A program made the position numbers and the translations under genes. A stretch of DNA of 64,000 nt from Hydrolagus colliei (taxonomy: Eukaryota), in the NCBI GenBank assembly GCA_035084275.1, contig CM068750.1, forward strand, positions 6,758,001 to 6,822,000, given 5' to 3'. The first letter of the stretch is position 1. Each line of letters begins with the position of its first letter. Shown one piece after another: positions 14,218-63,544 of this stretch. The notes under the pieces are model-generated. The model made no database searches. It had not been told where the DNA came from and worked only from the letters and a program-made list of their open reading frames with translations.

Positions 14218-14282
14218 GTGAGTGATTTCTTCCTTCTACTACTATCACCTCCACCGCCGACACCGTGAACGATGGCGCCGAT

Positions 14283-16599: not shown

Positions 16600-17105
16600 A
16601 CAATGGAAACTCCTCCTTGTTGTCCGTCCTGGTTCTTCCATTCACAAGCTGCCGATCATCCAGAACTCTGCACCTCGTGTTCTCACCCGCCCCAAGCTCC
16701 GTGACCACATCACTCCTACACTTGCCCGGCTCCATTGACTCCCCATCCCCCAGAGGATTGAATTCAAGACACTCGTCCTCACCTTCAAGGCCATTCACCG
16801 CCTTGCCCCTCTACGACCTGCTGTCCCCCTACGAACCTCCCCACCCCCTCCATTCAGCAGGCTCCAGCGTGCTACATGTCCCCTGACCGACCCGTCCTAC
16901 CATCGGTGAATGGGCTTTCAGCCTCTCTACCCCCACATTCTGGAACTCCATACCACAGTCCTCTTCACTCCCTCCCTCGCCTCCTTCAAGGCCGGTCTCA
17001 AGACCCCCGGGCGCTTGACAGCAGCTGAGCACAATACTGTCAATGTCAAGCACTTTGAGACTTCCCCTAGACGTGAAAAGCACTGTATAAATATAAATTA
17101 TACAT
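16600..17105 (+). mobile_element. L2 LINE 3' fragment, degenerate
   Basis: NGNSSL...; 'ccatcccccagaggattgaattcaag'; L2 tail at about 17045-17100. Confidence 0.85.
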
Positions 17106-17257
17106 GACAGTTACTTGGCAAAAAAGAAACATTAACTGTGTGCGGAGCAGGAGAATGGGATCAGATCAAATGATTCAGATTTTGTGGGTCAAATAATTTA
17201 CTTCTGTGTGGTAGCATATTATGATTCTATGACCCAATGACATTTTAAGCAAGTTGC

Positions 17258-18388
17258 GTGTACTCCTCCCTCACCTCTCCTCCCTCCTCAACCTCTAAGG
17301 CTGTGTCCTCGAATGGTTCCAGTCTTATCTCTCCCACCGGCTTCACTTCGTCTCCTCCAACGGCTTTTCCTCCAGCCCCCGCACAGTTCCTGGGGAACCC
17401 AGGGCTCTGTCCTTGGCCCCCTGCTCTTCACTCTCTACACTCTCCCCCTGGGCGACATCATCCACAGACATGGGGTAAATTTCCACATGTATGCGGATGA
17501 CACCCAACCCTACCTCTTCACGTCCACTCTCGACTCCAGGACCACTGGCGTTCTGATGGCATGTTTGTCCGACATTAAGTCCTGGACAAGGGCAAATTTC
17601 CTACAACTCAACGTCAACAAGACGGAGGCTCTCCTGATTGGCTCACGTCAGCACCTCAGGCGCTGACAACATCAACGTTCAAGACTGCTCTCTCCACCTC
17701 TCAAAGCCAATCAGGAATCTGGGCCGAACTATTCTTCCCCGAACTATCTTTCCTCCCCCACATCCGCTCCATGACCGGCACAGCCTTCCACCACCTCCTC
17801 ACCCTCCATGCCGCCAAAATGCTGATTCATGCCTTTATCACTTCCAGGCTCAACTACGGGAACTCTCTCCTCATTGGCCTTCCCATCTCCTCCCTTCACA
17901 GGCTGCAGATCATTCAGAATTCTGCAGCTCGTGTACTCTCCCGCACCAGGCTTCACAACCATATCACTCCCACCCTTGCCTGTCTCCACTCCCCCAGAGG
18001 ATCGAATTCAAGATCCTCGCCCTCACTTTCAAGGCCATTCTCTCTGACCTGCTGTCTCCCTATCAGCCTGCCGTTCCATTCAGCAGACTCAGGCCTGCTC
18101 CGCATCCACCGTCCTAATCACCCAACCATCGGTGGCTGGGCTTTCAGCCTCTCTACCCCCCACGCTACGGAACTCCATCCCGCAGCCCCTCCGCCTTGCT
18201 TCCTCCCTTTCCTCCTTCAAGGCTGGTCGCAAGACCTTCCTCTTTGACTGCGCCTTCAACTCCCCCCCTAACTCTTCCCCCTCTACCACTCTCCTCCCCC
18301 CCCCCCCCCCCCCCCCCACCGTTCAGCGCTTTGGGATGTCCTCCCGATGTGAAAGGCGCTATATAAGTGCAATTTTTATGTTTTTTTG
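17258..18388 (+). mobile_element. L2 LINE RT fragment to 3' end, frameshifted
   Basis: RT motifs [47 protein letters not shown]; L2 tail at about 18325-18385. Confidence 0.93.
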
Positions 18389-21224: not shown

Positions 21225-21745
21225 ATCAACAACAACCACTTCAATTTATATAGCGCCCTCCATACTGGACGGCATCAGAGAATGCTTGACAATAACGAAT
21301 CCACGGCCCTAGCCATGGGCAGGGGGAAAAAAGTGACCGAAGGCGCGGTCAAAAAGAAAGGTCTTCAACTGAGACCCAAAACTAGGACGAGAGGTTCCGA
21401 GGTGAAGGGAGTGAGGAAGGGAGTTCCAGAACTTTGGGGTGTAGTGGCTGAAGGCACGGCCGCCGATGGTGGAGCGGAGGATTCGGACGACAACAAGGAG
21501 ACCAGAACCGGAGGAGTGAAGGCAACGGGTGCGTGTTGGGAAAAGAGAAGGTCAGAGAGGTAGGGGGTTGCAGAAGAGTGGAGAGTTTTGAAAACACATG
21601 AGGATCTTGAAATCAATTCTGTCCAGGATCGATTTCAAGATTATACATCAGGGAGCCAGTGAAGTCTGGCAAGGATTGGGATGATCGGGGAGTGAAGTTT
21701 GATGCGGGTGAGAATATGGGCGGCAGAGTTCTGAATTACATCAAT
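21225..21745 (-). mobile_element. L2 LINE 3' fragment of a second family (different tail)
   Basis: IQNSAAHILTR...LARLHWLP; tail reverse of 'ctctgatgccgtccagtatggagggcgctatataaattgaagtggttgttg'. Confidence 0.85.
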
Positions 21746-23561
21746 AGGAACATGTGCTGAAGTTCCATTTTTACTACTAGTGTCAAATAGCCCTATAGGG
21801 ACTGAGAATTCATACATCAGTCTAATCTCACTGGTCAACTTGGCACAGCTTTTAATTTTTTTTGTACCTTCTTTAAGACACCCACGTTCTTCTGGGAAAC
21901 ATTTGTAATTGATATGTAATGAATAGAATACACAGCACGGGAATTAATTTGCAACTAATAAATATGTTGTTTCCAAATGCATTGATCCAGTTTGGTAGTT
22001 TATTTTTCGGTCCACAATCCTGTACTTGGTGTGAACTAAAATTTCTCTATAACATCTCTATAAATGCAAGGATTATTATACAAGAGTTCACAGTTTACAT
22101 CCCCACACAGTAACTTCTTGCCAATATGGAAAGGCTGCTCAATGGAGATTGCAGGAAAGCTGTGCTCAAGGGCATTGGCAGATTAGATAGTAAATACCAG
22201 AACTAAACACCAGCAACAACTTGCACTTATATAGCGCCTTCCACGTCCGGAAGCATTTCCGTGCTTAACAGTGGTTAAAGCCTGACTCCAAGCTGGCGAA
22301 CTTAGTAAGTTTTACTTCCTCTCCCACTTCCATCATTCCCACTTTTAAGATGTTGTTCGTTGCTTTGATTCTGCTCTTTTTCCAGCAGTTATTTATTGCC
22401 AGTTTCCAGACTCTCATTGATTTGCCCTTTTCCTCATTACCTCAATGCTCCACTGTGTGTGGAGCCCTGAACCTTGGAATCAACAAAGCCATTCAGCAGT
22501 TCAGGCCAAAATCTGAGGAAGAGAGGCAGTTTGCTGTGTACAGTTCACATTCTCAATAATTGCATTGTCAATGTCGAGGGTCTTGTCATTGGACAATAAA
22601 TCTGTAACATTATCCTCAAAGGATCTAGAGACATTGGCCCTTGTGAATTGCTCAGATTGTTTGATGGCTGCCATTTCTTACCAGAAAGGGTGGTTGAGAC
22701 CAGGAAACCTCTCGATGCTGTAATTGGAGGGCAGGTATTCAGGAAGGATGAGATCACATGGGCAGAAAGACCTTCTTTAATCAAACCTCTCTTGCAATCT
22801 TGAAGAAAGCATTCTCTCCCTGTGGCCTGATATTTGCTGATTCTTAAGAGGAATAAGAGAGTTAAGCTTCATCTACAAATATAGCCATTACACTTCCCAA
22901 TAAATCCTGAGAAATCGGGGAAGCTCTGAAATAAATACAGTCAATCTAAACTCAGGTGTAACTGTTCCCCGTACATCACTAACAGCAGAGATGGACTCCA
23001 TGACCTGCTGGATGACAGCCAGAAGTGCTAAACTTGCCACAAACTTGCTAGCACGCTAGTCGGAAGATTTGAATCTTCACAGTAAATAAAATCATTCTTC
23101 TGTGGCCACACAAATAATAGTTTGATGTTCAGAGAAAAGCTGCAATAAACTATACAGGCACTGATTAAAAGCAGAGAGATGACACAAAGTGGATACGTTC
23201 TTGCTCTCCGCACTGCTCAACAAAGCTTTTGGCTAAAACAAACAAGTAAACATTTTAATACATCTCTGATTCACTTGGAACACATATCGGAAATATGATC
23301 CAGTCAGAGTTCATGAGTTCTATTTTGCAATGTTAATACGTTTTTTTAAACTGAAAATTTCTAAAGAAATACTGAAAAGCTCAATACTGAATACCTTATA
23401 CAAAAGTAATGAAAAGTAAAATATAGATAAAGGATTGTTTCACCAAGCTCATTACTTATTAATAATAATAATCCTATATTTACTAGGAGCCAGCTCCTTG
23501 GGATGTCCTCCCGATGTGAAAGGTGCTCTATAAATACAATTTTCTTGTTCTTGGTTGCTGT

Positions 23562-23830
23562 ATAATCCTTGCATTTGATAGAGCGCTTTTTAGGTCTTCT
23601 AGATGTCTCAAAGCATTTCATAGAATATACTATAAAGTGAATTGACTGTACATATGTGGGTGAAACTTAGCAGTGTCCCACATCAGCTGAGAATTGACTA
23701 ATTTTTGGGCGATTTTTTGGGGAGGGATTATTATCAGACTTGTGGAGTAAGGAAATTTGCCACGGTTTCACCCTGCCTGGAAGCGAACCCAGGTCTCTCG
23801 CTTGTACAGCAAGTGCTCTTAACGGTAGCA
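23562..23830 (-). mobile_element. tRNA-SINE about 70 bp upstream of the PTGDR exon 2 acceptor
   Basis: Tail, body and head 'gaacccaggtctctcgcttgtacagcaagtgctctt'. Confidence 0.85.
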
Positions 23831-23902
23831 ATAGATACAGCATATAGCATGTTGTCCACTCGCTATTTATCATTAAATAATTTGTATTGTTCCTTTTTAC
23901 AG

Positions 23903-24112
23903 GTTCGTGCTTATATTGGTGCATTTGCTCCCGATAACAAAGACAGTGAAGATCTAATTGCCCTGAGACTTGCATCTGTGAATTCAATTGTTAACCCATG
24001 GGTTTTCATCATATTCAGAACATCTATAGTTCGGAAATTAGCTTCCACATGTTGCAATTATTCTTCAACTGCGAACATGGACTCTTTGCCTGAATTGAAG
24101 AGCAATACGTGA
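23903..24112 (+). CDS. PTGDR: DP1-like GPCR, coding exon 2 (ECL3, TM7, C-tail; 69 aa + stop)
   Basis: Acceptor 'ttcctttttacag|GTT'. Reads [41 protein letters not shown]...[13 protein letters not shown], with the TM7 ligand-binding Arg and DP-like RAYxGAF, IIFR and NMxS tail. Intron 14218-23902 (9685 nt). Confidence 0.88.
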
Positions 24113-40007: not shown

Positions 40008-40787
40008 ATGCTCAATGTGTCTTTCAAGAACAACAGTAACATCTCTGACTCTGGGGGTCCTCTGGCCAGCGCCCTCATGTTCACAGCCGGGGTGACGGGC
40101 AACCTGGTGGCTCTGGTCATATTGGGACTACACAAGAAAGACAACAGGAGCCGAGTGTCTCTCTTCCACATCTTAGTGACCGGGCTGCTGGTCACCGACC
40201 TGGTGGGGACTTTACTGATCAGCCCGCTGGTGTTGGCGGCTTATGCCCTGGACAAGAGCCTGATGAAGCTGGACTTGTGCCAGTATTGCGCCTTCACCAT
40301 GGCTTTCTTCGGACTGGCTTCCATGTTCATCCTGTTCGCCATGGCGGTGGAGCGCTGCCTGTCCATCAGCCACCCTTACCTGTACCAGAGACACGCCAGC
40401 AAACGCTGCGGTCCAGTCACCTTGTCGGTCATCTACGTCTTCTGCCTCCTCTTCTGCCTCCTGCCCCAGTTGAACTTCGGGGAGAACGAGCAATACTACC
40501 CGGGGACCTGGTGCTTTATTCGGATGAGCTCGACGGCCACCAGGCACCTGGTGTACTCGGTGCTGTACGCCACGCTGATGGAGCTCCTGATCGTCTCGAT
40601 CCTGCTGTGTAACCTCTCGGTCTTCGTGAACCTGTGTCGGATGTCCCGACGGCAAAACGCCCGCCGGGGCTCCACTCTGCCGGGAGCCCGGAGGAGAGAC
40701 CGCTTCTCCTACTCGGAGGAAACCAATCACCTGGTGCTGCTAGTCATCATGACCGTCATCTTCGTGATCTGCTCCGTGCCGCTCACG
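40008..40787 (+). CDS. PTGER2: Prostaglandin E2 receptor EP2-like GPCR, coding exon 1 (260 aa)
   Basis: gccATG at 40008. Motifs SLFHILVT, TDLVGTL, AMAVERCLS, PGTWCFIR, and 'PGARRRDRFSYSEETNHL', resembling mammalian EP2 PGARRRGERVSMAEETDHL. Phase-0 donor ACG|gtgagt at 40788. Lies in tandem downstream of PTGDR. Confidence 0.85.
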
Positions 40788-40927
40788 GTGAGTTGCCAAA
40801 GACAGACAGCCCCAGAGTTTAGGACAAGTTTCTTACACTCACTCACTCATCACTCACCCACCTGTTTGACTTAATAGTAAGCAAGTAGGGATCCTTGGTA
40901 TTTCATATATATATATATGTGTATATA

Positions 40928-41132
40928 TAATAATAATCCTTGCATTTGATGTAGCACTTTTCATGTCTTCTAGACGTCCCAAAGCGCTTCACAGACTGTA
41001 CTGTAAAGTGAATTGACTATGTACTTGTGGGCAAAACGCGGCAGTCGATTGCGCACAGCGGTGTCCCCACAAACAGCCGTGGATTGAAGTGACCAATTTT
41101 ATGATTGTGTTGTTTTTGGAGGGATTATTATT
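40928..41132 (-). mobile_element. tRNA-SINE 3' half in the PTGER2 intron
   Basis: Tail and body match with an AT-to-GC skew. Confidence 0.85.
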
Positions 41133-41989
41133 ATATATATATATACATATACACCCAGGACAGTCAATTCACTATATCCAATGTAATTTTATTCTTATTA
41201 TTCTGATTATTTATCCGGTTGTTTAGTTATTTTGGCAGATTTGTTTCCAGGAGTAATAATCGCTCTGATTTGTTGTTGCTGTTTCGCTCACGAAATGCAC
41301 AGTTTGCGGTAGATTCCTTGAAGCGGTTTAAGGCCTAGCAACAGCGTGTTGAGGCACTGCACCAAATGCAAGGATTATTATTGGTATTAAATTAAAAATG
41401 CGGTCCTCACTCAATCCACGACTGTTTCTGGGATACTGCTGTAACAAGTTAGCTGACGCATTTCGCCCACAAACCACTTTGCAGGATATTCTATGAAGTG
41501 CTTTGGGGCATTTCAACTGCATAACAAGGCCTTACATCAAATACAAGGATTAGTATTATTAAGTTAGAGGTACTGCTATGGGGAGCTGCTGTGATGGATA
41601 CCAATAGCAAGCCACACTAACTCTGTTGTTTTCAATTTAAAATAAAAAAGTGTGAGCCCCTCTTCTACCTACATGTTTACAGTGATAACAGTAATATAAA
41701 CACACTTAAGAGTAATTTTTAATAGACATAGTCTTATTTCATAGACATACTCAGCATTTAAGTGTTCTGGGCGCTACCCTGCATGCAGTTGCTGTAGTAA
41801 TAAACTGCATCAGATATACTTTCACAGCAATCAACGGCAACAGACATACATTCGCACCACATCTTCCTTAAAGACCATCTTTATTGTCGTGATAATGTGT
41901 TTTCCCCAGAAATTAAAATATTGTCACTTTCTGAAGCTCGATCTTGCCTTGCGCTAAAAACAACAACTGACCTTTCTGTCTTTTGTCAG

Positions 41990-42244
41990 GTTCGGGCGTA
42001 CATTGGGGCAATTGCTCCCGACGACAGTCACAAGAGCGACCTCATCGCTCTCAGGTGCTCGTCCTTTAATTCAATCATCGACCCGTGGATTTTCATAATT
42101 TTAAACACCTCTGTGGTGAAGAAGGGTCTGGCCAGGATATTGTGCTGTAAAATGTCTTTTAGAAAGCAGGAATTGCCGATAACGACCTCCTACATAAGGA
42201 CCGAGACCATTAAACAAGATGTCATTTGGGACAGACAGTCGTGA
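41990..42244 (+). CDS. PTGER2: EP2-like GPCR, coding exon 2 (84 aa + stop)
   Basis: Acceptor 'ctttctgtcttttgtcag|GTT'. Reads VRAYIGAIAPDDSHKSDLIALRCSSFNSIIDPWIFIILNT...RILCCKMSFRKQE, with an EP2-like LCCxxSxRxQ tail. TGA at 42242-42244. Intron 1202 nt. Confidence 0.85.
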   Translation, partial: VRAYIGAIAPDDSHKSDLIALRCSSFNSIIDPWIFIILNTSVVKKGLARILCCKMSFRKQELPITTSYIRTETIKQDVIWDRQS

Positions 42245-44733: not shown

Positions 44734-47700
44734 GTGTATGTCCATCGTGGGATTGTCCATTTCTGCCACATTAGTTTACATATTGGGACCAATTGAATAT
44801 CCTACTCTTTGATTTAAAACGGGTTGATAAGAGTTGTGGACTGGTTTACACTCTTGTTTAAAAATGAATACATTATCATTCTTTTTTTGCCCACTAAACA
44901 AAATATTTTGCTTTCACATAGATATCTTGTTACCAGCTGTTGTAAGTGATGGGGAGAGCCATCAAAGACTTTCTGTTCTTTCATGGTCTAAATGAATAAA
45001 TAATAACACTCATATTTAATTTAGCGCTTTCCTGTAGCGTCTCAAAGTGCTTTACTTAAGTGAGTTACTTTCAACAGTGACCACAGTTTTGAGTAACAGT
45101 CCAGCTGGTGTAGATCAGTTTCATTGTCCAATATTTTACAATAATATTTACATTTTGTAATAACACTTTACAGAGAAGCTTTTGGAATGTACGTTGTACA
45201 ATAGAAGTGATTCAGAAAGAGACAGAAATTTTAAATGAAATACTATTGCTGGCAATGCTAAAGAATGTCAGCCCATTGCTGTGTGTGTTTTGTGTGAGTG
45301 TGGGTCTCATGTAAATTTGTTACATTTGTTTTCCATGTACACAGCCAAGCAACTCTGCCCCATGCAAATTCAATAAAGTACAAGTGATGATTATTAGCTC
45401 AAATCTGCAGTTTTGTCAATATCTGGGTTTGAAAATGTAAATAAAAAATATTGTATGTATTTATAGACTTGAATGGTTAGCATATTACGCAATGGAATCT
45501 GTATGCGATATGCACAGACATCTTTCCAATAAATCGACTTGTTGTAACATGGAAATCTTGTGACTATCATCTACACAATCAAAAACCACCAGCTGAACGA
45601 GTTGATAAGATCACTTTAGAATTCTTAATGTGCATTACAGGATTTACTGTGAAAGATAAAGGCAACACATTGCATAATCGCTCAAAGCAAACCCAGAGAA
45701 TTCAATAGTTCAATCAGAAATAAATTAACAATCCTCGCATTTGATATAAGTGCCTCAACATGTTGAAACATTTAAGAGCAAATACTGTATGGGCTTTCCA
45801 GGTCAGCAACGTCCCAGAGCGCTTAACAATAGCGTAACCCAATGCTGAGCCAGGGGAAGAGGAAGGTGACTATAAGCACGGTGAAACAGGAAGGTCTTCA
45901 GACGCAACCTGAAATTGAGGAAAGGGAGCAAGGCGAAGGGATTGAGGGAGGGAGTTCCACAGCATGTTGGGGTGCACTGGCTAAGGAGAGCAGAGGGGAT
46001 GACAGATTTCCAGGAGGCTGAAGCCAGCTGAGGGAATAGGGTAGGTAGACGATTGAGTGGAAGCAATTACAGAATTACTTGCCCGTCATTCATACCATAT
46101 TTCTCCAACATCACTGAGCTCCCGCAGCACTGCATTGGGATAGCAGACACAAAATCCAAATGTGGGCCTTGAACTAATTTATCTTCAGATTGAAAAGTGA
46201 ATGCTGCTGAGTGAGCCAGGCTGGCACCCAGTAAGATGGATAGATTTATATGGGTTCCCTGCCTGATGGAGCCACAATCAGATTCTGCACTAAAATAACA
46301 TGTCGGTCATAATCTTTCACTTCCACCAATATATGCCCACAAAACAGGCACATAATTTACAGGACATCCTATGAAGCACTTTGAGACTCCTCCCAGGAGT
46401 AATTGGCGCTATATCAAATGAAAAGATTATGATTATTATACCTATTAGATGCTATTTGAATGAACATTCATTTAGCCCAACTCGTAAATACATTGATCCA
46501 ATCGGTAGATTCAGGTGGCTTTTTCACTATTAACCACAGCACATGTGCAGCCTTGAATAATCTTAATGTACAGACAGTGCACAGTGGTAAACAGCAGAAT
46601 GTAAGGTTGTGGGCGATGAACAGCACACATTAAAAGTTAAATACTGTAACAAGTTTATTGCGTTAGGAAAATTTAGTCCAGTCCTTCTAAAATTATATTT
46701 AGTCATATCAGCATTTCATTTTTAGGACGCTATATGGCCATCACCTCGCCAAAACTTCAGATTTGCCTGTAGAAGCAACAAAAAGCTATTTGTATGCAAC
46801 AACAACAAAATTACATTTGCATACATCATGTGGAAAAACACTGATGATAACTACTGAGCAGTACTGTACTTACAAGAGATGGTTATAAAATAACCATCAT
46901 GGAAGACGTTAATTAGATGGTGAGATACCGACAATCAGCAGTAAGTAACCAAGGTAGCATCCAGCATGTAAACTTTGACCAGATAGCAATCTACAGTACC
47001 CATTACATCAGCAGCAGTGTGGTGTCTCAAATGCCATCATCTGCACAGATAGATATAAATAACTTTTAAATGGGTTTTTCTGCCTTAAGGGAAAGAAAAC
47101 ATTACTCGCACATGATTAACGATTTATGATGAGATTAAATTATATTTCAAGCAAATGTCTGGCTTCTGTTTTACCTTCAAAGTACTGTACATCAAAACTC
47201 GCAATTGTCTTGCTTCCTATTATCATTATCCTGTTGTACAAACACCCATTAAAAACTCAAACAAATATGAAGATTATGCAGTCTGTCTTTGCCCTTTTTT
47301 CTATACTTATATTGTCAGACACTGAGCCAGACCATTTTTTGAAAAAAAAAGTGATTTCCTGTTGCTGTAAACCAGTTGATCTAACATTTGCTTAGATCTG
47401 TATAGCTCAGTATATAGCTCCAGTCTAGGTTGAAATCCTGCATTCCATTTCCAGTTGTGTGTGTATTGACTCGTGAGCTAGGGAGAACTTGAAGAAGCAG
47501 TGGATTGTGGCTGATATCAATCAGAGGTGGAGGGAAAATTTCCGTGTTACCCTTTTGACTTGAATGGGGCCTACAATTCACTCCAGTTAATTCTGAAGAA
47601 ATGAGGTCAATGTCTCAAAGGGCTTTTCAGCATCCTGTTTATATTATGTTGAGAACAGTTGCACTCTCTCAGTCCATAGCTCTCCTAATCCACTTAGTGT

Positions 47701-50826: not shown

Positions 50827-50855
50827 GCAGCGGAAACCAAGTGTTAGCTGATTAT
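50827..50855 (-). pseudogene. Possible 29-nt micro-exon of the NWD2-like locus
   Basis: tttatttgctttcag|ATAATCAGCTAACACTTGGTTTCCGCTGC|gtgagt; peptide (D)NQLTLGFRC, weakly like NWD2 'NDQFVVSLC'. Confidence 0.3.
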
Positions 50856-51035
50856 CTGAAAGCAAATAAATGGTGACCAAAAGGTTGTGATATCCAACCT
50901 AATATCTAAAAAAAATCAGCATTTTATTAAGACGTTGAAATGGTATCAGACTTTTCAATCGCCCTGTACAAGGAAATGCAATCATTCCTGTTAAAAACAA
51001 ATCCACATATCCATTCTGCGTAACATCTGAATTCC

Positions 51036-51071
51036 ATGCTTCTCGGCTTTTGGCTGAAGGTGAGACCTAGT
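51036..51071 (+). pseudogene. U2 snRNA 5'-end fragment
   Basis: atgcttctcggcttttggctgaag...tagt versus U2 5' AUCGCUUCUCGGCCUUUUGGCUAAGAUCAAGUGUAGU. Confidence 0.45.
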
Positions 51072-51222
51072 ATTGGTGCATATCAGTTACTACTTGGGAT
51101 ACGCAACTGTCAGAATCTCCCCATAATGCATTAAGAGAGAATGAGCAGGGGCTGTGGCTGTGTCTGTAGAGGAAGCAAATATACTGCAATACAGGGCTAG
51201 CTCAACCACTTGTTTACTTGGC

Positions 51223-51406
51223 TCAAGTTCTGTTCCATATGTATGAGATAATAACCCTATACTGTACAAAGATTATCATCAGAATCAGAGCGCTGTACAA
51301 ATCTGTAACACAAGATTCTACATCATGGTTTTCCAAGATTATCACGGATTTATTAGAAGACAAGACACAGCGTTTCCATATATGTAGTTCAGGGGAACTT
51401 CCGAAA
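51223..51406 (-). pseudogene. NWD2-like exon ending in a premature stop or frameshift
   Basis: Acceptor 'ttttactttcacag|', in phase with the 54252 exon. Peptide SFGSSPELHIWKRCVLSSNKSVIILENHDVESCV...SYIWNRT* aligns with recalled NWD2 'SLDGSDCVHKWNFSSG...HEGIVEHCV...QYVWHT'. In-frame TGA at 51223-51225. Confidence 0.55.
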
Positions 51407-52009
51407 CTGTGAAAGTAAAACAAATAATGGTTCGATTGGAAGCTTGAAGTCAGGTCCTAGGATTACGAATTTCTGTCGAGAACAAACACACTCTTTTGAG
51501 TCTTGCTAATCAGGTTTTGCATCTACAGCTGTTGGAGCAGCTTTGATGCTTTTCACACACGATAATTATTACAAACATGAATGTAGGTTTCTCAATGAAT
51601 AATCTGAAGTTTATCAACCCGAGAAGCCTATGCAGAACATAGATTTCACCAAGACACCAAGACAAAGGACAATTTGAAAAGAAGCAGTCAACGATATGAT
51701 ATTCGATTACCCATAAATATACAGTATTCCCTCTGCATTCATTATAGGCAGCTGTATTGTTACAGCAGTTTGGCTTTAATCATTCTAATTAATAAGTAAG
51801 GCCAGGATGCAAAGCCGTTGCTGAAATTTCTTGCTCCAGGTTTGACATAATAACCCACAAATTTATATTTGTGGAGCATGTACAAGGGTTGGTTTAGCCA
51901 AATCAAAACCATCTCAAATATTTTGCAGCTTTCTATTTTACAAGGTGCAGTATTAGCTCCTGTTCCGAATTTGCCTGCCACTTTCTGCCCACAAACACTT
52001 GAAAGCTCG

Positions 52010-52277
52010 ACTTACATGCGAGAGACCTGGGTTCATTTCCAGGCAGGTCAAAACCTTGGGCAAGTTTCCTTACCCCACACGCCTAATAATAATCTCTCAA
52101 AAAAATCAATAATAAATTGGTCATTTCAATCCCTGACTGTTTGTGGGACAAGTGGTTGCCGAGTTTCTCCCACATATATACAGTCAATTCACTTTAAAGT
52201 ATATTTTGTGAAGCACTTTGAGACGTCTAGAAGACATGAAAAACGCGATATCAAATGCAAGGTTGATTATTATTATT
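52010..52277 (+). mobile_element. tRNA-SINE
   Basis: Partial head, body and tail. Confidence 0.85.
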
Positions 52278-54251
52278 GCACATTGAAATTGCCACAAACC
52301 AATGCTCGATGCAGTATATCAGCCTTCAAACTTCACAGGTTTCGATTTGCAGGCTTTTTGTCATACTTAACAGTGAGGAAATTATTTCTGAACCCCCGAA
52401 CAATCAGCCAACAATGATAATCCCTCCATTATTTCTTCATCTGTGATATCTGTGTTGCAGCTAGGGACAATGTAAACTGATTAACAACGTCTATATTCTC
52501 AATTCAATTGCCTTTCTTTTAAGACACACCATTTTTGCTTTTAAAAACACATGTATTTCTTTTGATCAAGGTTATGTGTGCTTCTTTTGATTAACAAAAT
52601 TATTTTTAAGGTATAAGTTTTCAAATTCAAGTTCAAGACGTGAAAAAAAATTGCTACAGAGGCATCTATAAAGAATCATCTGACAGAATCTGGGATCAAT
52701 GAATCATCTGCAGGAGGTATGATTTTAATATAGAGTCAGTTTCAGTTCTCTTTTGCAATATAACTTGCTCACAATCTGCACTATGACTCAGTCTCTTCAA
52801 CTTTAATTGGGAAATTGAAACAACTTCCAAGTCTAGAAATGTAATAGTCTGCCTTGTTGCATTGCAATAAAACAATGCTAAGTATACAACATCTTTTTCC
52901 ATGGAAACTACTTCAGAAGGTAATCGGAAAACATTTACTGATTCCATTCTCCCACTTCACTTTAAGACTTCAAAGCAACATTATATTGTTTATAGATGGG
53001 GTTTGAATGAAAAAAAGAACAAATTAGGCACATTTCTATTAGGAAATAATAAGTCAAAATAAAATATATAGTTTGGGACATGACATATCAATCGACAGCC
53101 AGGATAATAGAAGACAAATTCTTCTTTTGCCTAGCAAATTCTTATGTTCTCTTTCATTTCTTTTTTTCTCAACACAATACATACATGTGACACAATGGGC
53201 AGATTCCAAATCCATCTCTAGGTTTTGACCCTTTTAAGAAAATATCCTTGGTGCAGGTGCATCTCACAATGAAGGTAATGAGGGAATGAATGCCCAGGGT
53301 GTAAAGGTTATGCCCCTCTCAGTCTGGGATATGAGAGAAGGAGACATTCCACATCTGGTGGGGCAGGCAGAAAAGGCACTCTTGGCTTTAATAAAGTATT
53401 AAAATCACAGTCAAACTACAATAAAAAGAAAGTTATTTTAGGAACTACAGAACAAAAAACAACTTCAAAGCTAAGATTGAATTTAACAGTTTGCCAGACT
53501 GAGGATGCTCAGAAATTGCTGGGAAAATATAAATCTAGACCCAGATGGAATTTCCCCCCCATAGTTTAATAATCCCTAATCTAAAAGTTAGTCATTTTAT
53601 TGTACTTACTATTTAACAAGTGAATTAGGACAAATAGAACTATAGGTTGTTTAACATTCACATAATCACTTAAATAATGATGTCAGGCACAACTTCAAAA
53701 TCATAATTCAGCCATTTCAGATTTCCAGTTTAACTAACTGCAGAACACAATAATAATTTTTTGCTGAAGGCAGTGTTTTTGTTGTGACCTCATTTCAAAA
53801 GAATGCATTCAATATATACTGCAGGCAGCTGGAAGCCTTGTTATAGTAAACCTGTAGATACATGTCAACTGTAAGTAGGCTCTACTTAGTTATGTGAAAG
53901 AAAGAAAACATGCAGAGTTAGACATTAATATTAAAGTTAATATACTACAGTTTATAGTTAGCTAATCAGCTGCCCAACAAGCTCTACATAAAGCACTCAC
54001 TATATATTAGATAACAAATTCACACACAGTAATAGGGCTAAAAGAGAATTTTATAAATCCACATATTAATAATTACAATCATTGTGTTTGATGTGGCACC
54101 TATAACATGGAACATCCCAAAGCACTTTCTCTTGTAAAAAGCCGAAGGATTGAATTTACTGATGAAGATACCCTTCATTTATTTAATCTTTTGAAATGTA
54201 GATTTAATAGTAATTGTGCTTATGGAGTTTCTAATAGGGAGCTTGCCTGAC

Positions 54252-54368
54252 CTCCATTTCATTCCAAAAACTTCAAGTGAACTTATAGCTTTCCCAGTCT
54301 TGTCAATATCAATGTAATTCTGGTCAGCGACTTTTCGTAATTGTAGACTCTGTTCAATATCCCAAACA
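54252..54368 (-). pseudogene. NWD2-like (NACHT-WD40) exon, WD40 repeat region
   Basis: Polypyrimidine tract + cag acceptor, gt donor, 117 nt, phase 2/2. Peptide (S)VWDIEQSLQLRKVADQNYIDIDKTGKAISSLEVFGMKW resembles recalled NWD2 'SIWDID...NIDKTGKPIQSL'. Confidence 0.65.
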
Positions 54369-55479
54369 CTGAGCAGAGACAGGGAGAAAAAATCATAATC
54401 AGATTGAGCCAAACTAAATAGTTTACTGAATGAAATAAAGATGTATTGGTCTCTGCACGGTTACAATATCCAAATATAGAGCCTAAATATACCTCTGTTA
54501 CCATTTACAACAACAACAACAAAATTACATTTATATAGCACCTTTCACGTTGGGAGGACGTCCTAAAGCGCTGAACAATCAGGTCGGCACCAGGGCGGGG
54601 GCGGGAGGGATCGGGGTAGGGGGAAGGAGAGTAGGAGAATTTATGTATATGTGTGGGCGAAACGGTTACATTACAATACTACATTTTATTGTATGAAGAC
54701 ATGCCCTAATTCATTCTAACTAAATTATTTCCCTTGTCACTTCTTCCTCCGAGACACCTATCTAAGCCACTATTCCAAAAGATAAGGGTGTTCCTTGCAT
54801 TGTCCCAACCAATGCTGCAGTCCAACTGATAGTACCTTCACCATTAACGTCTCCCCACCCCACCTCCTCACCCCCTTTAGCTTCAAGACCCCTCTTAAGA
54901 ACTTTATTTCTTCAACCAAGCTTTGGACTACCTTCTCCTCCAAGGCCCTTCCAAGTTTGTGTTCCCAGGCAGCTGTGTGAAACGCTTTGGGATGTTTTCT
55001 TGACATGAAAGATCGGTCTAAATGTAATTTGTTATTATTGGAAATATACCTAATATGTCAAGGTTTTATTAGCTTTTAACAAAGTTTTCTCATCTTTAAA
55101 GGCATTTGTTCTGCCCCACAGCTAAACACTATCTTATTTACTTAGCACTGAAAAGATGTTCCTTTTTTTTGTTTATTTAGGTTATTATCTACACACCACA
55201 TCAGCAGGAACACATTCAATGCTCAAACATTCTAAAGACTCCCCATTCATTATGAAATGTGGAGTAAACTCCCAGGGAAAAATTCAATTTTGAATAAACA
55301 ACACAACCTTGCAGCATGGAAATCAGCCTAGAATGAAATTAACTTAGCCAAGGTGAAAGGAATGTGAGGTTGCTCACAAGATGCTTTGAAAAAAAACTAA
55401 GCTTTCAATTAAAATAGAAGGATGAATTGTACAGTTGTATAGTCACCAGCAGTTATTGGTAAAGCAAATGGATGAAGAC

Positions 55480-55826
55480 GTGATCTACAAAATTACCAAG
55501 GAACGGAGGATATAGAATTAAATTGAAGAAATCTTAACCCGGATAGAGAGCCCCCCTCCATCATCAAATATAGAACATTTGCAAGACATTATAAAGGAGA
55601 GCGTCCCAACAAAAGTAGTTGATGTTATATAGTACATTACAATTCCTTTGCAAAAAACAACATATCTGCTTGAAACAAATATTGGAGATTACACATTGGA
55701 GGCACAAATGAGCACAATAGGACCCTGTGATTTTTGTGATGATGGAAGGAGGTGCCAGAGGTGTCATGAGCAAAGGAAAGCTAATGCTTGACACCTCACA
55801 TGTGGAGAAGGATGACCATCTTGGAT
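55480..55826 (+). mobile_element. Decayed PIF/Harbinger transposase C-terminal relic
   Basis: One frame reads IYKITKERRI*N...PTKVVDVI...GEG*PSW, plus a shifted frame TLQFLCKK. This echoes Harbinger YRLSRARRxxEN / PxKVxxIV..C.LHNFLRK / GEGAVxW in the same order. Confidence 0.45.
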
Positions 55827-58800
55827 TTTATTTTAAACTTGATCAACTTCAGGAATAAGATGCTTGAATTTAGGAAGAATCTATTGTACACGCCAATATG
55901 TTTGAATGGGTTTGTGGCTCCATGATAGCGTGAGTTTTGCATATCTGTGGAGGCTTCTTGGCTGAAATGGTCTTTTTCATCCCTAAGTAATTAACAGAGG
56001 TTTAACTTTTGTTAACCTTAACCACATCCTGGAAAGAATTTCACAACAAACTTTTTAAAATGTAGAGGGCATTCCTCCAAATTTCATAATGGGAGTAAGT
56101 GTTCTCCACTCAAACTGTTTTCTTTGCATAACAGCTGCATGGGAAAACATGTAGAAGTAAATGCTCAGTGTACACTGCAGGTTTGGCAGTAATGGGCAAT
56201 TTTCTTGGTTTCAGAACCCTTCAAAGCAGTGTTAATAGACAACGCATTTCAAACCGCCCAAATCATTTTTAGTTCCCTTTGCTTCGGCACCAAGCCTGTA
56301 TTCCCTGACAAAAGGAACTCAATATGAAAGGAAAGAAAGGCCTGTTTCCGCCACGGCAACACAAACCTTTCTCTTCTACCTTCAGTCCAACATCTGTCAA
56401 TAACCTCTGAATGTAAGGCATACCTGCTTTCCGTAGATTTCTTCTCTTACAAGTAACTTATCCATGAAGCCGAGAATTACAATTATAAATACAACTGATG
56501 TCATTGAAATGTTACTTTTCTTACTAATGGAAAGTTTTCAATGGAATCTTGAAATGAACACTAAGTATGTACCAAGGGATACATTTAGCTAGTCTGATAC
56601 ATACTATTATTGCCTGCTGACATGATTACCCATACTAGTTTCTAAATTCTTTCCGACCTTTTGTCTTTAGTATTTTCTGGGCAACAGCAAACCATTGGAT
56701 CTGATTGAAAATGAGAAAGCCCCAAAAGTCAGACAAAAGGTCAGAAAGCCAAAAGCCAATTTGGGTAACTTTTTCCCACAATTTATTTCAGCATATTGTA
56801 ATAAATTATGATATTTCTGTTGCAGCTTCTCGTTTGTGAAAAATGCAATTTTTCACAATACCATGTGATTTTAGAACAACTCCTCCAATTATGTCATCCA
56901 TGCCCACTATTTAAACAAAACTATTTTGTACACAAGGAAGGATGTCAAACTTAATGGTGCCAAGTCTCCTTTCTCCATTGGTTGCTGACAATAAACAAGC
57001 TTGAATAAAGTGAATTTGGGTAGCCTCAATCCATTTCAGATCAAATTATAAGTGTCCTACAGGATTTCCGTAGCTTTATCTGTTTTTAATTATAAGTAAA
57101 ATAGATTATTGTGAAAGTCTAATTAGATCATCTGCCGCTACTGGTGATCAAAACTGACAAGCAGTTTGATGCTGTGGTGGGGGGGAATGGTAGATTGGTG
57201 TAGGACGAAGGTCAGAAATGTACACAGAAACAAATTCTGGAAAGATGTACGTCTTATCTCAGGTGTACCATCTCAAAGACCTTAAGGGTTCAAGAATAGA
57301 AGGACACACAAAAGACCAGAAGTCATTGTTGTTGGCATCAGGCAGTGAAGAGAAACACAGTATTGTGCTACTTTTATCGTTCACAAAATACAGTCATTAC
57401 ACTTCACAGTATATTCTGCAAAACGCTTTAAGATGTCTTGAAGACTTGATTAAGCCGCTTTCTGAACTGCAAAGATCATTATTATTAGATATATTAAGCA
57501 ACTCTATAAACTCATAAACGGCACTGGTGATGATGGAATTAATCTCTTCTCTCTATTTACCCTAACCAAAAACCTTGTTTTGTGGTGTTTGCAGCATATT
57601 AAAAAAAATTGAAACCCTCAGCGGTAGGTTCTCATAACAGTGAGTTATGTGGATTGCAAGTTAATGCAGCTGTGGGATAGTTCGGTTCACACTGCATTTT
57701 CTATTCATCTGGTTCTGGTTTCAGTTTCTTTCTGAGGAAGTGTTTGTTCTTTTCCAATTCCTTAGCATGAGAACATATTGTGTCTGGCTGGTGGAAAGTC
57801 GTTGTTATTGGCATCAGGCAGTGAAGGGACAACTGTGTTGTGCCCAGTGTTTGTTGTTGTGAAATGTAGCTGGTCAACGGGGGTGGAAAAAGGAATTCTC
57901 TTTGCTTTGGAAAGGCAAACAGTAAAATGGATTTGGCAGATATCAGTAATCTAAACAAACACATATTTTACTGAGCTTTTAATCAGATTGAAGAGAAGCC
58001 ACCATATGGTACTCATTATGTTGGAATCTTAACAAGGATTTGGAATATTAAACTGGAGCACAGAAGAGTAGAAAAGTTTGAAGGACAATATAATGCCGGG
58101 AATGAAAAGGTTCATGGATTCTGTAGAAAGGGGTTGGAAAGTGTCTCTCTATACTCTTTCCCCCCAACAAAAAGGCAACCAGCAAAACTCCAGCATACCA
58201 ATCTCACCTCACAACCTGCAGAGTTCACCCATAACCAGGTCTCTTTTTGGTGAGACATTGCCACGATTTTGATAGCTCAGAAACATTGTATTTACCGGCA
58301 TTTATCCCAACAACTCTGAATCTCTAGCCTCGTCAAATGGCCATCTAATTTGTATTTTTAACCGTGTATAAGTTGCACCAGCAGAAAGTATAGTCTGCAC
58401 ATTTATTATTTAGGAGGGGGGAAAAACTGCTTCTTTTTCTGGATATGCACTGGGATGATACCAGGGATAAGGATATCAAATGTGTGGAGCTGGTTGGGAC
58501 TGTTAGCTTTCCGAGACGTTACCTGTGAAGAGGCCATTATATGGCTGTTTTGCCCACAAATATAGTCAATTTACTGTACAGTATATTCTGTGAAGCACTT
58601 AGAGATCTCTAGAAGATGTGACAAGCGCTATATCAAATGCAAGGTTTATTATTTTATTATCGTATAAATGCAAGTTGCTGTTGTGAGACCGAGAGAGTTT
58701 CAAGTTTTTTTTTAATGCTGGCAAACAATGCAAATACTGGGAAAGAGCAAGGAGTGAGATTCTAGAATCATTGGAAACAGAGAATAGGTTGATTCACTCT

Positions 58801-58869
58801 GCAGCACTATAAAGATTGGAATTGAATTACACCTTCTCTCCCATTAGTCCCTTGAATGCCCTAAAAGGT

Positions 58870-59178
58870 TTTAGAGCATTTTACTAATGACCAGTTTTTA
58901 ATAATAATGTGAAAGGCTTGATTTCAGAATGCTTTGCTTCCTGCTTTGCATCGCTCCATTTCCAGGAAAATACACAAAACATTAGAATCAGAGAATGTCA
59001 GACCGGAGCTCAGACAATTTCAGCAAATAACTGTTCATCTCTAATGGCTTTCTTCTGTGCTGTACACCATGACCGTCTTTGTAAAGCACTCAGAGACAAT
59101 TATCCCACATGAGGGGCAATACATAAATGCATCTTGTTGTAATTGCAGAATGGAACATGTCTCTATAGTGTTTTGTAC
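58870..59178 (-). pseudogene. Disrupted NWD2-like exon (stops and an L2-tail insertion)
   Basis: Acceptor 'ctttacttctccag|' at 59178, then KHYRDMFHSAI, then an L2 tail with a TTGTAA duplication (59079-84/59137-42). Further on, VFSWKWSDAKQEAKHSEIKPFTLLLKTGH** versus recalled NWD2 'KHNERFISAV...VFFWRRDTGQCMASLQEISGSIVKLVKSSHHN'. TAG TAA at 58886-58881. Confidence 0.5.
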
Positions 59179-62064
59179 CTGGAGAAGTAAAGGTTCGGGG
59201 TGAACAAGGGGTGATAATATTTATATAGAAACAAGGAGAGACAGAGACAGTATAGTAATGCAGATGGAAAATACAGTAAATACATTTCTAAACTGAGACA
59301 GAATAAGAATAACAAATTGACATTTGTATACCTTTCATGTCGGGAGGACATAAGGTTTAATACGCAGAGATTCTAGTACATCAATCAAGCCTGGTTTTGG
59401 AAGGACATCAGCCCATTATTCAAAATAATAATAATCCTTGCATTTGATATAACACCTTATCACCTCTTTGTGATGCTTCAAAGCACTCCACAGAATACAC
59501 TGTAAAGCAGAATAACTATATTCTGTAATCAGATTACAATTCTGATTCTCATCAGGTAACAATTATGCGATTAACTTATTATTTGAGAATATTGTAAATA
59601 TGGTCTGAATAAACCAACAGAGAATAGACTTTTATTCTTTCTACTGAAGATATTTTGAAACAGCTATTATTATTATTATTTGAATACTATTTCCATCAAC
59701 ATCCCTGCCTCATTTGGCTTGTTTCATAATATATGTCACTTTCTTTTTTTTGTAACTTAATTTGTGTCCAAATTAATTTGTGTCCAAAGTTTCCATATTA
59801 ATATTATTTGCATCTATTGTGTAATCAGTTGGGTTTTAATGGAAGTTTTTTTTAACTCACTGATGTATTAAATTCTTTGCCTTCCTCAGTCACTTTGGCT
59901 TGCCGACATTTCTGTAGCATCAGTCATCGAAATGATTCAGCACCAGTTCACTATGACATTGAGGGCATTAATCATCTTCTTATTAATTCATAAAACACAA
60001 TGCTACTGTGAGGTTACAATAATAATTCTTGCATTTGGTGTATTTCACCTCAAGAGACCATCTCAAGGCCATCTTCACGGGACATACAATTTAATGACCT
60101 CATATTTTATAAGCAAAAGTGGCAGCAAATGTCACACAATAATGTCTCACAAACAAGTCATGAAGTGAATGACCAATTTTACCTGGGAGGATTGTTAACT
60201 AGCACATTGAAAGAAACTCCTTTCTCTTTTTGAATAGTGCATTTAATGCTCACATAAACAAGAGCAGGACCTCAGTTCTGCACAATGTCTTTCCTAATCC
60301 CACTTAAATTCAACTTTAATATTGTCAATGGAGTCTAATATCTTCCAACAGTATTCCTTAATATAGAAACCAGATGTGCATCACTCTTGATTCAGAAGAA
60401 CTCTGCTCCAACACAATCTACTTTCACAGTGAGGTTAGTAGGTTAGAACTCAGTATTTTTGAAGTCACCATTCAAATTCCTTATTACCCAATCAAAATGA
60501 CTGGCTACCAGAAGCTGATTGATGCCAATTTGTGAGGGGAGGAGTAAATTCCCCCAATATTTTGTACCTATTAACCAAGGTCCAACGTCTATAGCTTCAG
60601 TAACATTAGCAGAAAAAAATCTATAGTTATTAGCAGGAGAGAGATGAAACCCTTTCACCAATACTAATGGAATGTCAATTATTTTAAGCACTTGTGCTGT
60701 GAGGGCATATAGATAATGCAGTAATGTTTTTAATATTTATTATTGCAATTAACCTACATTTGCAGGCTATAGTTTGTACTGGTAGTTGGTGGAGAAGAAG
60801 CTTGTTTAGCACCACTAATGGAGTAGAGTGTCTATTACCTTTAAACCCTCATGTTCTGAGGATCACGTACTGTAAATTTTTAATAGAGCAATTAACCTGA
60901 TCATTCCTTTACAATAGGTTTTCTGACAAATTGACACATTTTAAGAACTTAATGTTCTAAAGCTTACAAGGGATTTTCTTAATTATTTATCTTCACTTGA
61001 ATTACAGTATTACAGTAATCCTTGTTTGATTTAGTGAAAAATTTCAGAGTGCTTCACGGGATTTTCTGTAAAGTGTAAAATATTTGTACATAAAAGTGGT
61101 AACATGTATGCAAAAGGTGATGTCCCACAAACAGCAATAGATAAATGGTCAATTCTATCGGGAGGATTGTTGGCCAGGGCATTATAAGAAACTTAAAAAG
61201 TGTCATTACAGATGGGAGCTCAGTTTGAAATCTCATCCAAGGGTCAGCACCTCCTAGAACTGCATTCGAGGGTCAGACTAGACTGATGTGTGGTTTGAAG
61301 CCATAACCGTTTGATTCAGAGACAAGACTTCTACCAGCTGAGAGGGGTTGCCTAAATTAAATAAGATACCCGATTATTCGGCACAGGATTTGATTTGAGA
61401 ACAGCACCAAGTTTTCAATCTTGGTAGAGTCTTTGCTTGACGTTTCCCACACTCTAAACAGTGAGGTAATTTATACACATGGAAACATTCAATTCTTTTG
61501 GAATGAATTTGGCACTTCTGATCATGTTAATAAGCCAAAATATCAGCACAACCATATGCTCAAACCGCCTGGCATGCAAAGGAGACAGAATCTGTTTTCG
61601 TAATCACACTTTAATGAATGGATACAGATTTTGTTAAAAAAAAGCAGACCTGATGGAGACTTGCAATAAACTACTGAGAAACTTTAACCATTGTGACACA
61701 TCATGGGGTATTTACTAAAATTAAGTGTTGAAAAGGTCAAAATCTCTGAGTCAATTATTAATGCCTAAGAATGGTGAGGGGTGTTAACTTTTTATCCCCT
61801 GGATAAACTATCAAGATATGAAGTGACTTCTACCCAGGTTCATTGTTCAAATCAGGAAATGACTTCAATTTGACGCCGACATTTCAATGGCAAAAATGTT
61901 AAAATGTTATTCTCCCTGAAGATCTAACCTGGGTGGGAGGGATGGAGATACAGTAAGCATCAATTTTAAAAATGTAGAATTTTAAAAGCCTGTGATTACT
62001 TCATAATGTTGTAACAAGTCTAATTTGTTAAACAGTCTTCTAGAGTAGAAAAGCATTGTCTTAC

Positions 62065-62228
62065 TTGTAGCTGCAGCTGGAACATTGCAATCGGTTGTGT
62101 CATTCACAGCTGCACAATTATTTTCAAATAAACAGTCATGGTATAAATTGCGAACATATTCTGGCTGATACATATTCCAACAAAATCCTGAACTGTTCCC
62201 CAAATCATCTATTAAACCATCTACCAGT
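62065..62228 (-). pseudogene. Putative NWD2-like exon (WD40-like)
   Basis: Acceptor 'ctccttttcttag|', donor |gtaag, single open frame LVDGLIDDLGNSSGFCWNMYQPEYVRNLYHDCLFENNCAAV... (WN...DCxxE pattern as in NWD2). Its phase-1 end fits the 59178 acceptor. Confidence 0.45.
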
Positions 62229-63544
62229 CTAAGAAAAGGAGACTTGTTCACTTTCACTGTAAGTGATTTTCCCCATAATGTAGGTATGAAAAGATATGGA
62301 AAGATAAGATAAGATAAGGAAAGATATGTCTTCTTTGAGACTTGCATTCAAATCTCTCAAAAGCAGGATGCATTATTTCTCAGTAGAATTCTCTCTTGCA
62401 CTCAATTGGTCCTTATATTACCTTTGGTTTCGTATCAAAATATCACAAAACAGTAGTCATTTGACACTGTCCCATTTAGCAAAACACAAGTCAGGTTCAG
62501 ATTTTCATGTGTGAATGCAGAAGTAGGCCAGAGCTACACAAGACCTCAAATATGCACCTTCATGCCAGAAAGGAAAATCAGGCTCGCTATCCCAGTGAAA
62601 TTATCAATGAGCCTTTTATGTAGGTTTACAGAAAGTGACAGCAATGCACTGTCATGCACGCACGCACCAGATATTAACACAGAGTTCTTAGTGAGTCGCT
62701 GTCTACAGCGACTTTGCGACAAATGTAGATGTTGTAAACAATTCCTTAAGAAACAACGGTCATAGTAGAAACAATATGTGGCATCTAAAGCAATTCTCCT
62801 TCTCATTATAACTACAATTTTTAAATATTCTGTCATGAGAGAATTGCTCTTCAGTGCACCACTGCACTTCCTTATGTTAAGACAGCCTTTGGGATGAGAG
62901 GTTGAACCCAGTTTAAACTAAGAGTTCATGTGTGCTAGTTGCCATGTGCGAGAACAGTGAAAATGTTAGAACAGTGAAAATGTTAGAAGAATCGGCAAAG
63001 ACAGCAAAGGTCATTTTCGTTACACTAAGTGTAAATTTCTTATCCGTGAACATAAGGTTGATAGTGATTTCCTCAGGTGCAGTGATGGTATAACCTTTCT
63101 TGTCTCTAACAAGACTACAAAAATCATCCAGTGAAATGCTCCAGCATTCAATAACTCAAAGCTATTATTCTTGGAATGTAGAGGTGATTAACAACCTTTC
63201 CCCTTCTTTTAAGTTTAACTTACCAAATTGACAAACCTCAAAAGGAAACCGCCTGCAAAATAATATTTTCCACTTTAGAGAAATGGGAAGCAAGACAACA
63301 ATCAGATTCAGATGTCATTCAACACACACATCACCAAAACACTTGCGTCTATTTTTATCTCGAAATAGAGGAAATCTGCCTTCTCTGATCTCAAATGCAT
63401 CAACGTACTACACTCGAGATCCAATATTGCAAAGCAATGATGCAATACCCTGAGCTGTGTCTGAAATCTAAGCAACATGTGAGTTATTTCACAAACATCA
63501 TGGAAACCACCAACAACGATTCATTTATTTACCAAATCACTGAC

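What the first reader, a model, noticed from the sequence alone, without database searches (positions are those of the whole stretch)
50827..62228. Fossil intron-rich NWD2-like NACHT-WD40 (STAND) gene convergent with PTGER2
Seen: four or five - strand segments with good splice acceptors (62228-62065, 59178-58870, 54368-54252, 51406-51223, perhaps 50855-50827). Two junctions are phase-compatible. The segments encode WD40-like peptides in the same order as the NWD2 C-terminal propeller as I recall it (WN..DCxxE; KH..F.SA; VFxW[K/R]x7Ax3EI; SxWDI...IDKTGK.I.SL; GS...H.W...VE.CV...Y.W). Lesions: TAG TAA at 58886-58881, an L2 tail with a TTGTAA duplication inside one exon, and TGA at 51223 right after YIWN. 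Established: NWD1/NWD2 are NACHT+WD40 STAND NTPases, related in architecture to fungal HET-E and NLR-type sensors, and the human neighbour of PTGER2 is TXNDC16. Inference: this is a separate, multi-exon paralog (I recall the mammalian NWD2 WD region sitting in one giant exon) that was lost in this lineage and may be intact in sharks or rays. Its NACHT exons would lie beyond 64 kb.
Basis: partly seen in the sequence, partly recalled or inferred. Interest (0 to 1): 0.75.

Follow-up and report, generated by a model that had tools for sequence, protein, structure and literature searches.

The report
Dead intron-bearing NWD2-like gene remnant
Next to a prostaglandin-receptor gene lie a few exon-like pieces, one broken by stop codons and a jumping-gene insertion, that are likely the remains of a dead, intron-containing relative of the signalling gene NWD2; the match is real but weak, and only two or three of the five pieces hold up.

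Summary
Partly confirmed. All five minus-strand segments exist, with good acceptors. Pfam, PDB, Atlas and two protein searches with single segments found no relative. I fetched NWD2 and its relatives indirectly and tested the segments against them. The supported core is exon B (59178-58885) spliced to exon C from acceptor 54425. It reads 136 codons at 25-30% identity to NWD2 (BLASTP E 2e-4 to 0.5 at proteome scale). Exon D is a plausible continuation. A and E are unsupported. Corrections: B reads in another frame, so the A-B phase match fails; TAG TAA is probably a splice donor; the real lesions are a 58-nt repeat insertion and two TGA codons in B. An intact shark/ray NWD2-like paralog exists but is not this gene's ortholog. 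NACHT exons, synteny and expression could not be tested. An unguided spliced alignment is not significant proteome-wide, so chance remains possible. Verdict: likely a pseudogene of an unannotated, intron-bearing NWD2-clade paralog (0.65); modest interest.

The parts
58885..59178 (-). Exon B: supported core. Phase 0 start, phase 2 end; 78 codons once the insert is left out; matches the WD40 region of NWD2 at about 1220-1305
   Evidence: Acceptor rank 2 of 1232. Best local match lies just upstream of C's match in 10 of 10 NWD2 proteins, scores 31-50. Ranks 1 of 519 GT-ended upstream stretches; 0 of 1500 decoys reach its gain.
59085..59142 (-). 58-nt decayed SINE/LINE tail inserted in exon B, with a 6-nt direct repeat (59142-59137 and 59084-59079); shifts the frame
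   Evidence: tail profile E 1.2e-4. Spanned without gap by X1 contig 58631-59446.
59010..59012 (-).
58998..59000 (-).
58881..58886 (-). TAG TAA: probably the splice donor TA|GTAAAA at 58884, not a lesion
   Evidence: Weak donor, rank 573 of 1181. Chosen by the spliced aligner. Scores better than read-through.
54252..54425 (-). Exon C: supported core. Phase 2/2, open; carries WDI and IDKTGK. Second acceptor at 54368 is stronger but fits NWD2 less well
   Evidence: Donor rank 16 of 1181. Best tblastn hit of fish NWD2 in the window, E 0.094. The 20-codon extension from 54425 is matched by 37 of 3000 decoys.
51218..51406 (-). Exon D: plausible continuation. Phase 2 start, 60 open codons, TGA at 51225-51223
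   Evidence: Acceptor rank 26. Adds 5-14 points per NWD2 protein, but ranks only 8 of 657 AG-started stretches; 13 of 1500 decoys reach its gain. Not significant without B and C.
50827..50855 (-). Segment E: exon-like, unsupported; would need a frameshift in the tail of D
   Evidence: Summed gain 2 over 10 proteins
62065..62228 (-). Segment A: strong splice sites and an open frame, but NWD2 similarity is not significant and its phase does not fit B
   Evidence: Best 20 of 500 shuffles within the local NWD2 window; 34 of 1500 decoys reach its best gain.
47260..47477 (-). Candidate further exon F with short NWD2-like motifs in two frames around a T9/A6 run; unproven
   Evidence: Gain 216 after C, 0 of 1500 decoys, but not significant alone, 14-57 of 300 shuffles against three NWD2 proteins.
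63326..63460 (-). Candidate exon U upstream of B, in competition with A; unproven
   Evidence: Ranks 1 of 266; 1 of 1500 decoys reaches its gain; weak donor.
40008..42244 (+). Convergent neighbour: intact two-exon EP2-like prostanoid receptor gene
   Evidence: EP2 240 bits, IP 235, DP1 184; splice sites.

Best explanation
Exons B and C, and probably D, are likely the remains of a dead, intron-containing paralog of the NACHT-WD40 gene NWD2; exon B carries a repeat insertion and two in-frame stops, so the locus would make no full protein. Shown: the segments, splice signals, insertion, stops and modest NWD2 similarity. Inferred: the gene drifted to about 28% identity with NWD2 while still coding, because B and C align with in-frame gaps only. 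Inferred: it died comparatively late, when the tail insertion and stops hit exon B. Read as it stands, B stops at codon 46; skipping B would put C out of phase. By analogy only: the living protein would have been a STAND switch whose WD40 propeller holds a NACHT ATPase shut until a ligand binds.
For: B+C+D (199 codons) scores 80-111 against 10 of 10 NWD2 proteins, 46-53 against 3 shark/ray NWD2-like proteins and 35-38 against 2 NWD1; 0 of 1000 shuffles reach it for the 4 tested. phmmer's top 10 of 25 proteins are the 10 NWD2. B+C alone: BLASTP E 2e-4 to 0.54 at an 11-million-residue scale, 1e-3 to 1.8 with composition adjustment. The spliced aligner picks B and its junction unaided and the chain B-C-D for arowana NWD2; 6 of 10 NWD2 segments beat all 131 real-protein decoys. 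Neutral decay of the fish exon to 33% identity left no frameshift and at most 2 stops in 0 of 1000 runs at each of three indel rates. AU tests accept placement in or beside NWD2 and reject sister to the shark paralog or outside both.
Against: No single segment is significant: Pfam, PDB, word search with C, word-free search with D (1 spurious repeat protein), Atlas (an RCK lead). Family profiles give about 0 bits and weaken as diversity is added. The generic WD40 profile is at chance. In the unguided spliced test 4 of 10 NWD2 segments fall within the decoy range; my Gumbel extrapolation gives about 3 equally good matches per vertebrate proteome for the best one. Removing the insert adds almost no score (841 against 836). 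The B donor and the 54425 acceptor are weak. Nothing significant lies upstream of B or downstream of C taken alone. The model was fitted to NWD2, so the tree test is partly circular. GC equals background.
Confidence: 0.65

Rival explanations
1. No gene: intergenic DNA in which one chance motif (WDI, IDKTGK) and common AG/GT signals were stitched into an NWD2-like chain.
For: Single segments are blank in every library. GC equals background. Best tblastn E is 0.094 in a 64-kb search. Exon-like open segments arise by chance: 6 observed, mean 1.6 and range 0-6 in 40 resamples. Rival candidates U and F score better than A and D, which shows how easily motifs appear.
Against: The first 36 codons of B land at the expected spot in 9 of 10 NWD2 proteins. 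The match starts at the second-best acceptor once the repeat-bracketed insert is left out.
Confidence: 0.2
2. A DNA-level copy of the intronless NWD2 giant exon that decayed neutrally and was split by kilobases of inserted DNA; the splice sites are coincidence.
For: The tree places the sequence in or beside NWD2 itself. The B-C junction signals are weak. Fish NWD2 has no intron here.
Against: Decay to this identity should leave about 4-17 frameshifts and 5 stops; B and C show no small frameshift and 2 stops (the best-preserved part is selected, so this overstates the case). Alignment edges coincide with high-ranking sites at 59178, 54251 and 51406.
Confidence: 0.07
3. The exons are real but belong to another gene, such as a different WD40 protein or an RCK-domain potassium channel.
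For: Atlas gives Slo-like RCK clusters for D at 0.90, 157 of 256 features shared. C and D align to the shark paralog in a different blade register, as generic repeats would.
Against: D has no hit in Pfam or PDB at E up to 10. The Atlas itself rates such a hit as a lead. Other WD40 proteins tested score at shuffle level.
Confidence: 0.05
4. The gene is still expressed in a shortened form that bypasses exon B.
For: A, C and D keep open frames and fair splice sites.
Against: B is phase 0 to 2, so skipping it shifts the frame. D ends in TGA. No annotated ortholog was found.
Confidence: 0.03

Closest known systems
Vertebrate NWD2 (KIAA1239), e.g. P0002 Centroberyx, P0010 carp, P0029 coelacanth
   Same: Collinear match over about 190 residues of the WD40 region, including WDI and IDKTGK; 27-32% identity over 159 columns.
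   Different: True orthologs are 66-98% identical to the fish query and the fish gene has no intron here. This locus has apparent introns, insertions of 7 and 8 residues, stops and a repeat insertion.
Shark/ray 'NWD2-like' paralog (XP_067841646.1, XP_051882479.1, XP_060682178.1)
   Same: Same family; sister clade to NWD2 in the full-length tree. Shows that extra NWD2-clade genes exist in cartilaginous fishes.
   Different: Intact, 1629-1669 aa; 15-17% identical to the model; lacks IDKTGK; no tblastn hit on the segments; rejected as sister (p-AU 0.0007 and 0.008). Not the ortholog.
NWD1 (frog P0136, medaka P0137)
   Same: NACHT-WD40 STAND protein with many exons (19 in mouse; PMC11897295, passages).
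   Different: 9-10% identity, scores at shuffle level.
DUF4062/NIR-NACHT-WD40 proteins (TEP1, NWD1, NWD2, NPHP3) with APAF-1-like layout
   Same: Architecture the living gene would have had (preprints 10.64898/2026.05.01.722283 and 10.64898/2026.09.04.749371, passages).
   Different: Only WD40-region pieces lie in the window; no NIR or NACHT exon was seen. Those papers report no NADase activity for human NWD1 or NWD2.

Membership tests
NWD2 clade | WD40 region more similar to NWD2 than to other family members | tested here: met
   80-111 against NWD2, 35-53 against others; top 10 of 25 phmmer hits. Modest, and the model was fitted to NWD2.
NWD2 clade | WD40 repeats recognisable by profile | tested here: not met
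   No WD40 or NWD family in Pfam; generic profile 0.1 bits for D, 38-63 of 300 shuffles for joined models.
NWD2 clade | NACHT ATPase and winged-helix (PF25469) upstream of the propeller | not testable with these tools
   No genome held; no significant hit inside the window.
NWD2 clade | N-terminal DUF4062/NIR domain | not testable with these tools
   Would lie beyond 64 kb; the feature is taken from preprint passages.
NWD2 ortholog | High identity to other vertebrate NWD2 | tested here: not met
   27-32% against 66-98% among orthologs.
NWD2 ortholog | WD40 region inside one giant exon | tested here: not met
   L003 has 977 codons without an intron; here the match is split by 4.5 and 2.8 kb.
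Shark/ray NWD2-like paralog | Orthologous sequence match | tested here: not met
NWD1 | Sequence match to the NWD1 WD40 region | tested here: not met
   Scores 35-38, shuffle level
Unprocessed pseudogene | Disabling lesions in a coding exon | tested here: met
   58-nt insertion and two TGA in B; present in X1 contigs
Unprocessed pseudogene | Retained exon-intron structure | tested here: inconclusive
   Three strong sites at alignment edges, two weak ones at the B-C junction
Unprocessed pseudogene | No intact transcript | not testable with these tools
   No RNA run listed
Unitary pseudogene | Intact syntenic ortholog in another lineage | tested here: inconclusive
   None found, but 64 of 184 hits were not listed, only 8000 candidates were scored, and synteny could not be read
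Slo-type RCK domain | Match to PF22614 or to solved Slo channels | tested here: not met
   0 hits for D at E up to 10; Atlas lead only

The most novel reading that the evidence does not exclude
The locus is the relic of the intron-rich parent of the NWD2 clade: NWD2 and its giant exon arose from it by intron loss or retroposition early in jawed vertebrates, and the parent survived beside the PTGDR-PTGER2 pair as a fourth, fast-evolving NWD gene until it died in this lineage.
Probability: 0.15. Interest if true: 0.55.

Novelty: new member of a known kind. Interest (0 to 1): 0.33.

Why it matters
If real, vertebrates had at least four NWD-type STAND genes: NWD1, NWD2, the shark/ray NWD2-like gene found here, and this lost one. 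Its intron positions would show whether the giant NWD2 exon is derived. The family has gained attention as DUF4062/NIR-bearing, APAF-1-like proteins of mostly unknown function, so a lost member helps map its history. As it stands it is a dead, partial, weakly matching gene with no mechanism of its own, so the value is for gene-family evolution only.

Tried and rejected
Own genome: not held. RNA: no RNA holder listed; this is no evidence either way. Earlier findings: 4 of 5 look-ups empty, the fifth irrelevant. Pfam: 125 of the window's ORFs, of which 121 were minus-strand ORFs chosen from the 141 listed, and 8 trimmed pieces: no WD40 or NWD family. PDB with C, D and A: nothing below E 0.2. Word search with C: 2 candidates, none at E up to 10. 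Word-free search with D: 1 hit, a tandem-repeat artefact, rejected. Atlas: none for C; the RCK lead for D was rejected. Motif scan of metagenome contigs: 1 of 21 loci was NWD2, 20 were unrelated. Shark/ray NWD2-like as ortholog: rejected. TXNDC16 as the identity of the segments: no thioredoxin-type Pfam hit; no TXNDC16 sequence was available for a direct test. Searches for more exons upstream (5 proteins) and downstream (5, then 4 proteins) were not above shuffles. The segment tree did not finish; placement rests, whose free search with D included put the window beside NWD1 with support 17.6 on a long branch. Literature: no paper on such a paralog or on this synteny in 7 searches; subscription papers and all supplements were not seen. 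No structure prediction was run: single short exons would not be decisive.
Full report
Setting. The window is vertebrate DNA with two plus-strand prostanoid receptor genes: a DP1/EP2-like gene from 13426 (DP1 238 bits, EP2 236) and an EP2-like gene at 40008-42244 (EP2 240, IP 235). Its repeat tails look to me like those of cartilaginous fishes; this is recalled and was not tested. No genome is held, so nothing beyond 64 kb could be read.

The observation. The five segments are present. With an approximate splice matrix their acceptors rank 8, 2, 27, 26 and 29 of 1232, and the donors of A and C rank 15 and 16 of 1181. A wider tract window ranks A only 167th. Exon-like open segments are slightly enriched: 6 against a mean of 1.6, range 0-6, in 40 resamples. 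GC is at background. Contigs of run X1 repeat B with one SNP and no gap, and D and E unchanged; X1 may be the source sample.

Single segments have no detectable relative. Pfam, PDB, a word search with C and the Atlas with C were blank. The word-free search with D returned one repeat artefact. The Atlas gave D an RCK lead at 0.90 that Pfam and PDB did not back.

Getting references. A motif scan of metagenome contigs returned 21 loci, of which one (L003) is a fish NWD2 with a 977-codon uninterrupted frame. This shows the giant exon directly. It led to 120 listed proteins, nearly all named NWD2, and to NWD1, invertebrate relatives and an intact shark/ray NWD2-like paralog, 35-38% identical to NWD2. 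That paralog is sister to NWD2 but gives no hit on the segments.

Joined as described, it scores 67 against teleost NWD2 (0 of 300 shuffles) but has no signal without C (27 of 300). Family profiles give about 0 bits and a generic WD40 profile is at chance. A strict spliced alignment scored 68.7 (0 of 163 shuffled proteins; 13 DNA decoys at most 52.3) but used only C reliably.

A better model. Allowing stops, the aligner chose B in a different frame. Leaving out the 58-nt tail between the two TTACAA repeats gives 78 codons in phase 0 from the acceptor, with TGA at 59012-59010 and 59000-58998. Its best match lies just before C's match in 10 of 10 NWD2 proteins, though alone it is weak (12 of 1000 shuffles for coelacanth, 83 of 1000 for one teleost). 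A donor at 58884, inside the 'TAG TAA', joins in phase 2 to an acceptor at 54425 and closes a 13-residue gap. B+C+D then scores 80-111 against NWD2, 46-53 against the shark paralog and 35-38 against NWD1. Removing the insert adds little score (841 against 836); it only restores the frame to the acceptor.

What does not hold. A is not significant in any frame and ends in the wrong phase. E adds nothing. D ranks 8 of 657 candidates and is reached by 13 of 1500 decoys; its case rests on acceptor, phase and 60 open codons together. Two other stretches, U and F, score better than A and D at first sight, but F is not significant alone. No further exons rose above shuffles.

How sure. In an unguided test against 131 real-protein decoys (mean 44.0, maximum 64.4), 6 of 10 NWD2 segments exceed all decoys and 4 do not. 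My extrapolation gives about 3 equally good matches per proteome for the best segment, so score alone does not prove identity. The strong splice sites at the alignment edges, the repeat-defined insertion and the two independent stretches tip the balance. I put the reading at 0.65.

How it arose. Neutral decay of the fish exon to 33% identity produced on average 5 stops and 4-17 frameshifts; 0 of 1000 runs at each indel rate had none and at most 2 stops. Survivor bias softens this, but it favours long divergence as a coding gene and a late death. AU tests accept a place in or beside NWD2 and reject sister to the shark paralog (p 0.0007 and 0.008) or outside both (0.0003 and 0.04); the test is partly circular, and the free tree with D was unstable. 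As it stands B stops at codon 46 and skipping it shifts the frame, so a product is unlikely. The function of the living gene is inferred by analogy to APAF-1-like DUF4062-NACHT-WD40 proteins (two preprints, passages only; PMC11897295, passages).

Novelty. Seven paper searches found no description of this paralog or its synteny (listings only, plus one passage of PMC11788884, and passages of PMC3303848). Supplements were not read. It is a new, dead member of a known family. Interest 0.33; the bolder case, a relic of NWD2's intron-rich parent, has probability 0.15.

Noticed in passing
P0128, P0130, P0131 and cluster members P0148-P0153: Sharks and rays carry an intact NWD2-like gene, 35-38% identical to NWD2 and sister to it. 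It appeared only in cartilaginous fishes among the 35 hits, and I found no paper on it. It may be more worth study than the pseudogene.
   Followed up: partly
window 13426-24112 (+): Intact two-exon prostanoid receptor gene scoring equally to DP1 (238 bits) and EP2 (236), in tandem with the EP2-like gene.
   Followed up: partly
window 40008-42244 (+): The gene called PTGER2 scores EP2 240 and prostacyclin receptor 235 bits, so its name needs a tree or synteny.
   Followed up: partly
window 47260-47477 (-): Strong acceptor followed by 56 open codons, and an exact WSGSVS match to teleost NWD2 in another frame after a T9/A6 run; not significant alone.
   Followed up: yes
window 62549-62917 (-): 123-codon open frame holding an exon-like stretch 62829-62668 with strong sites (phase 1/1); no family match.
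   Followed up: partly
window 54502-54626: Younger copy of the same repeat tail just upstream of exon C; the tail family has 62 hits in the window.
   Followed up: partly
window 59018 and 52841: Differences in run X1 outside repeats: 59018 appears heterozygous (depth 47.7 of 89.7; Ile to Val in exon B's frame); 52841 differs in the one covering contig.
   Followed up: no
L003 1953-4883: A fish NWD2 giant exon sits in a record of the metagenome collection, presumably host DNA.
   Followed up: yes
window 51226-51405 (-): Exon D passes the Atlas recognition threshold (2398) with Slo-like RCK clusters at 0.90, and its start aligns to a different WD40 blade in all three shark/ray paralogs. Unexplained.
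   Followed up: partly
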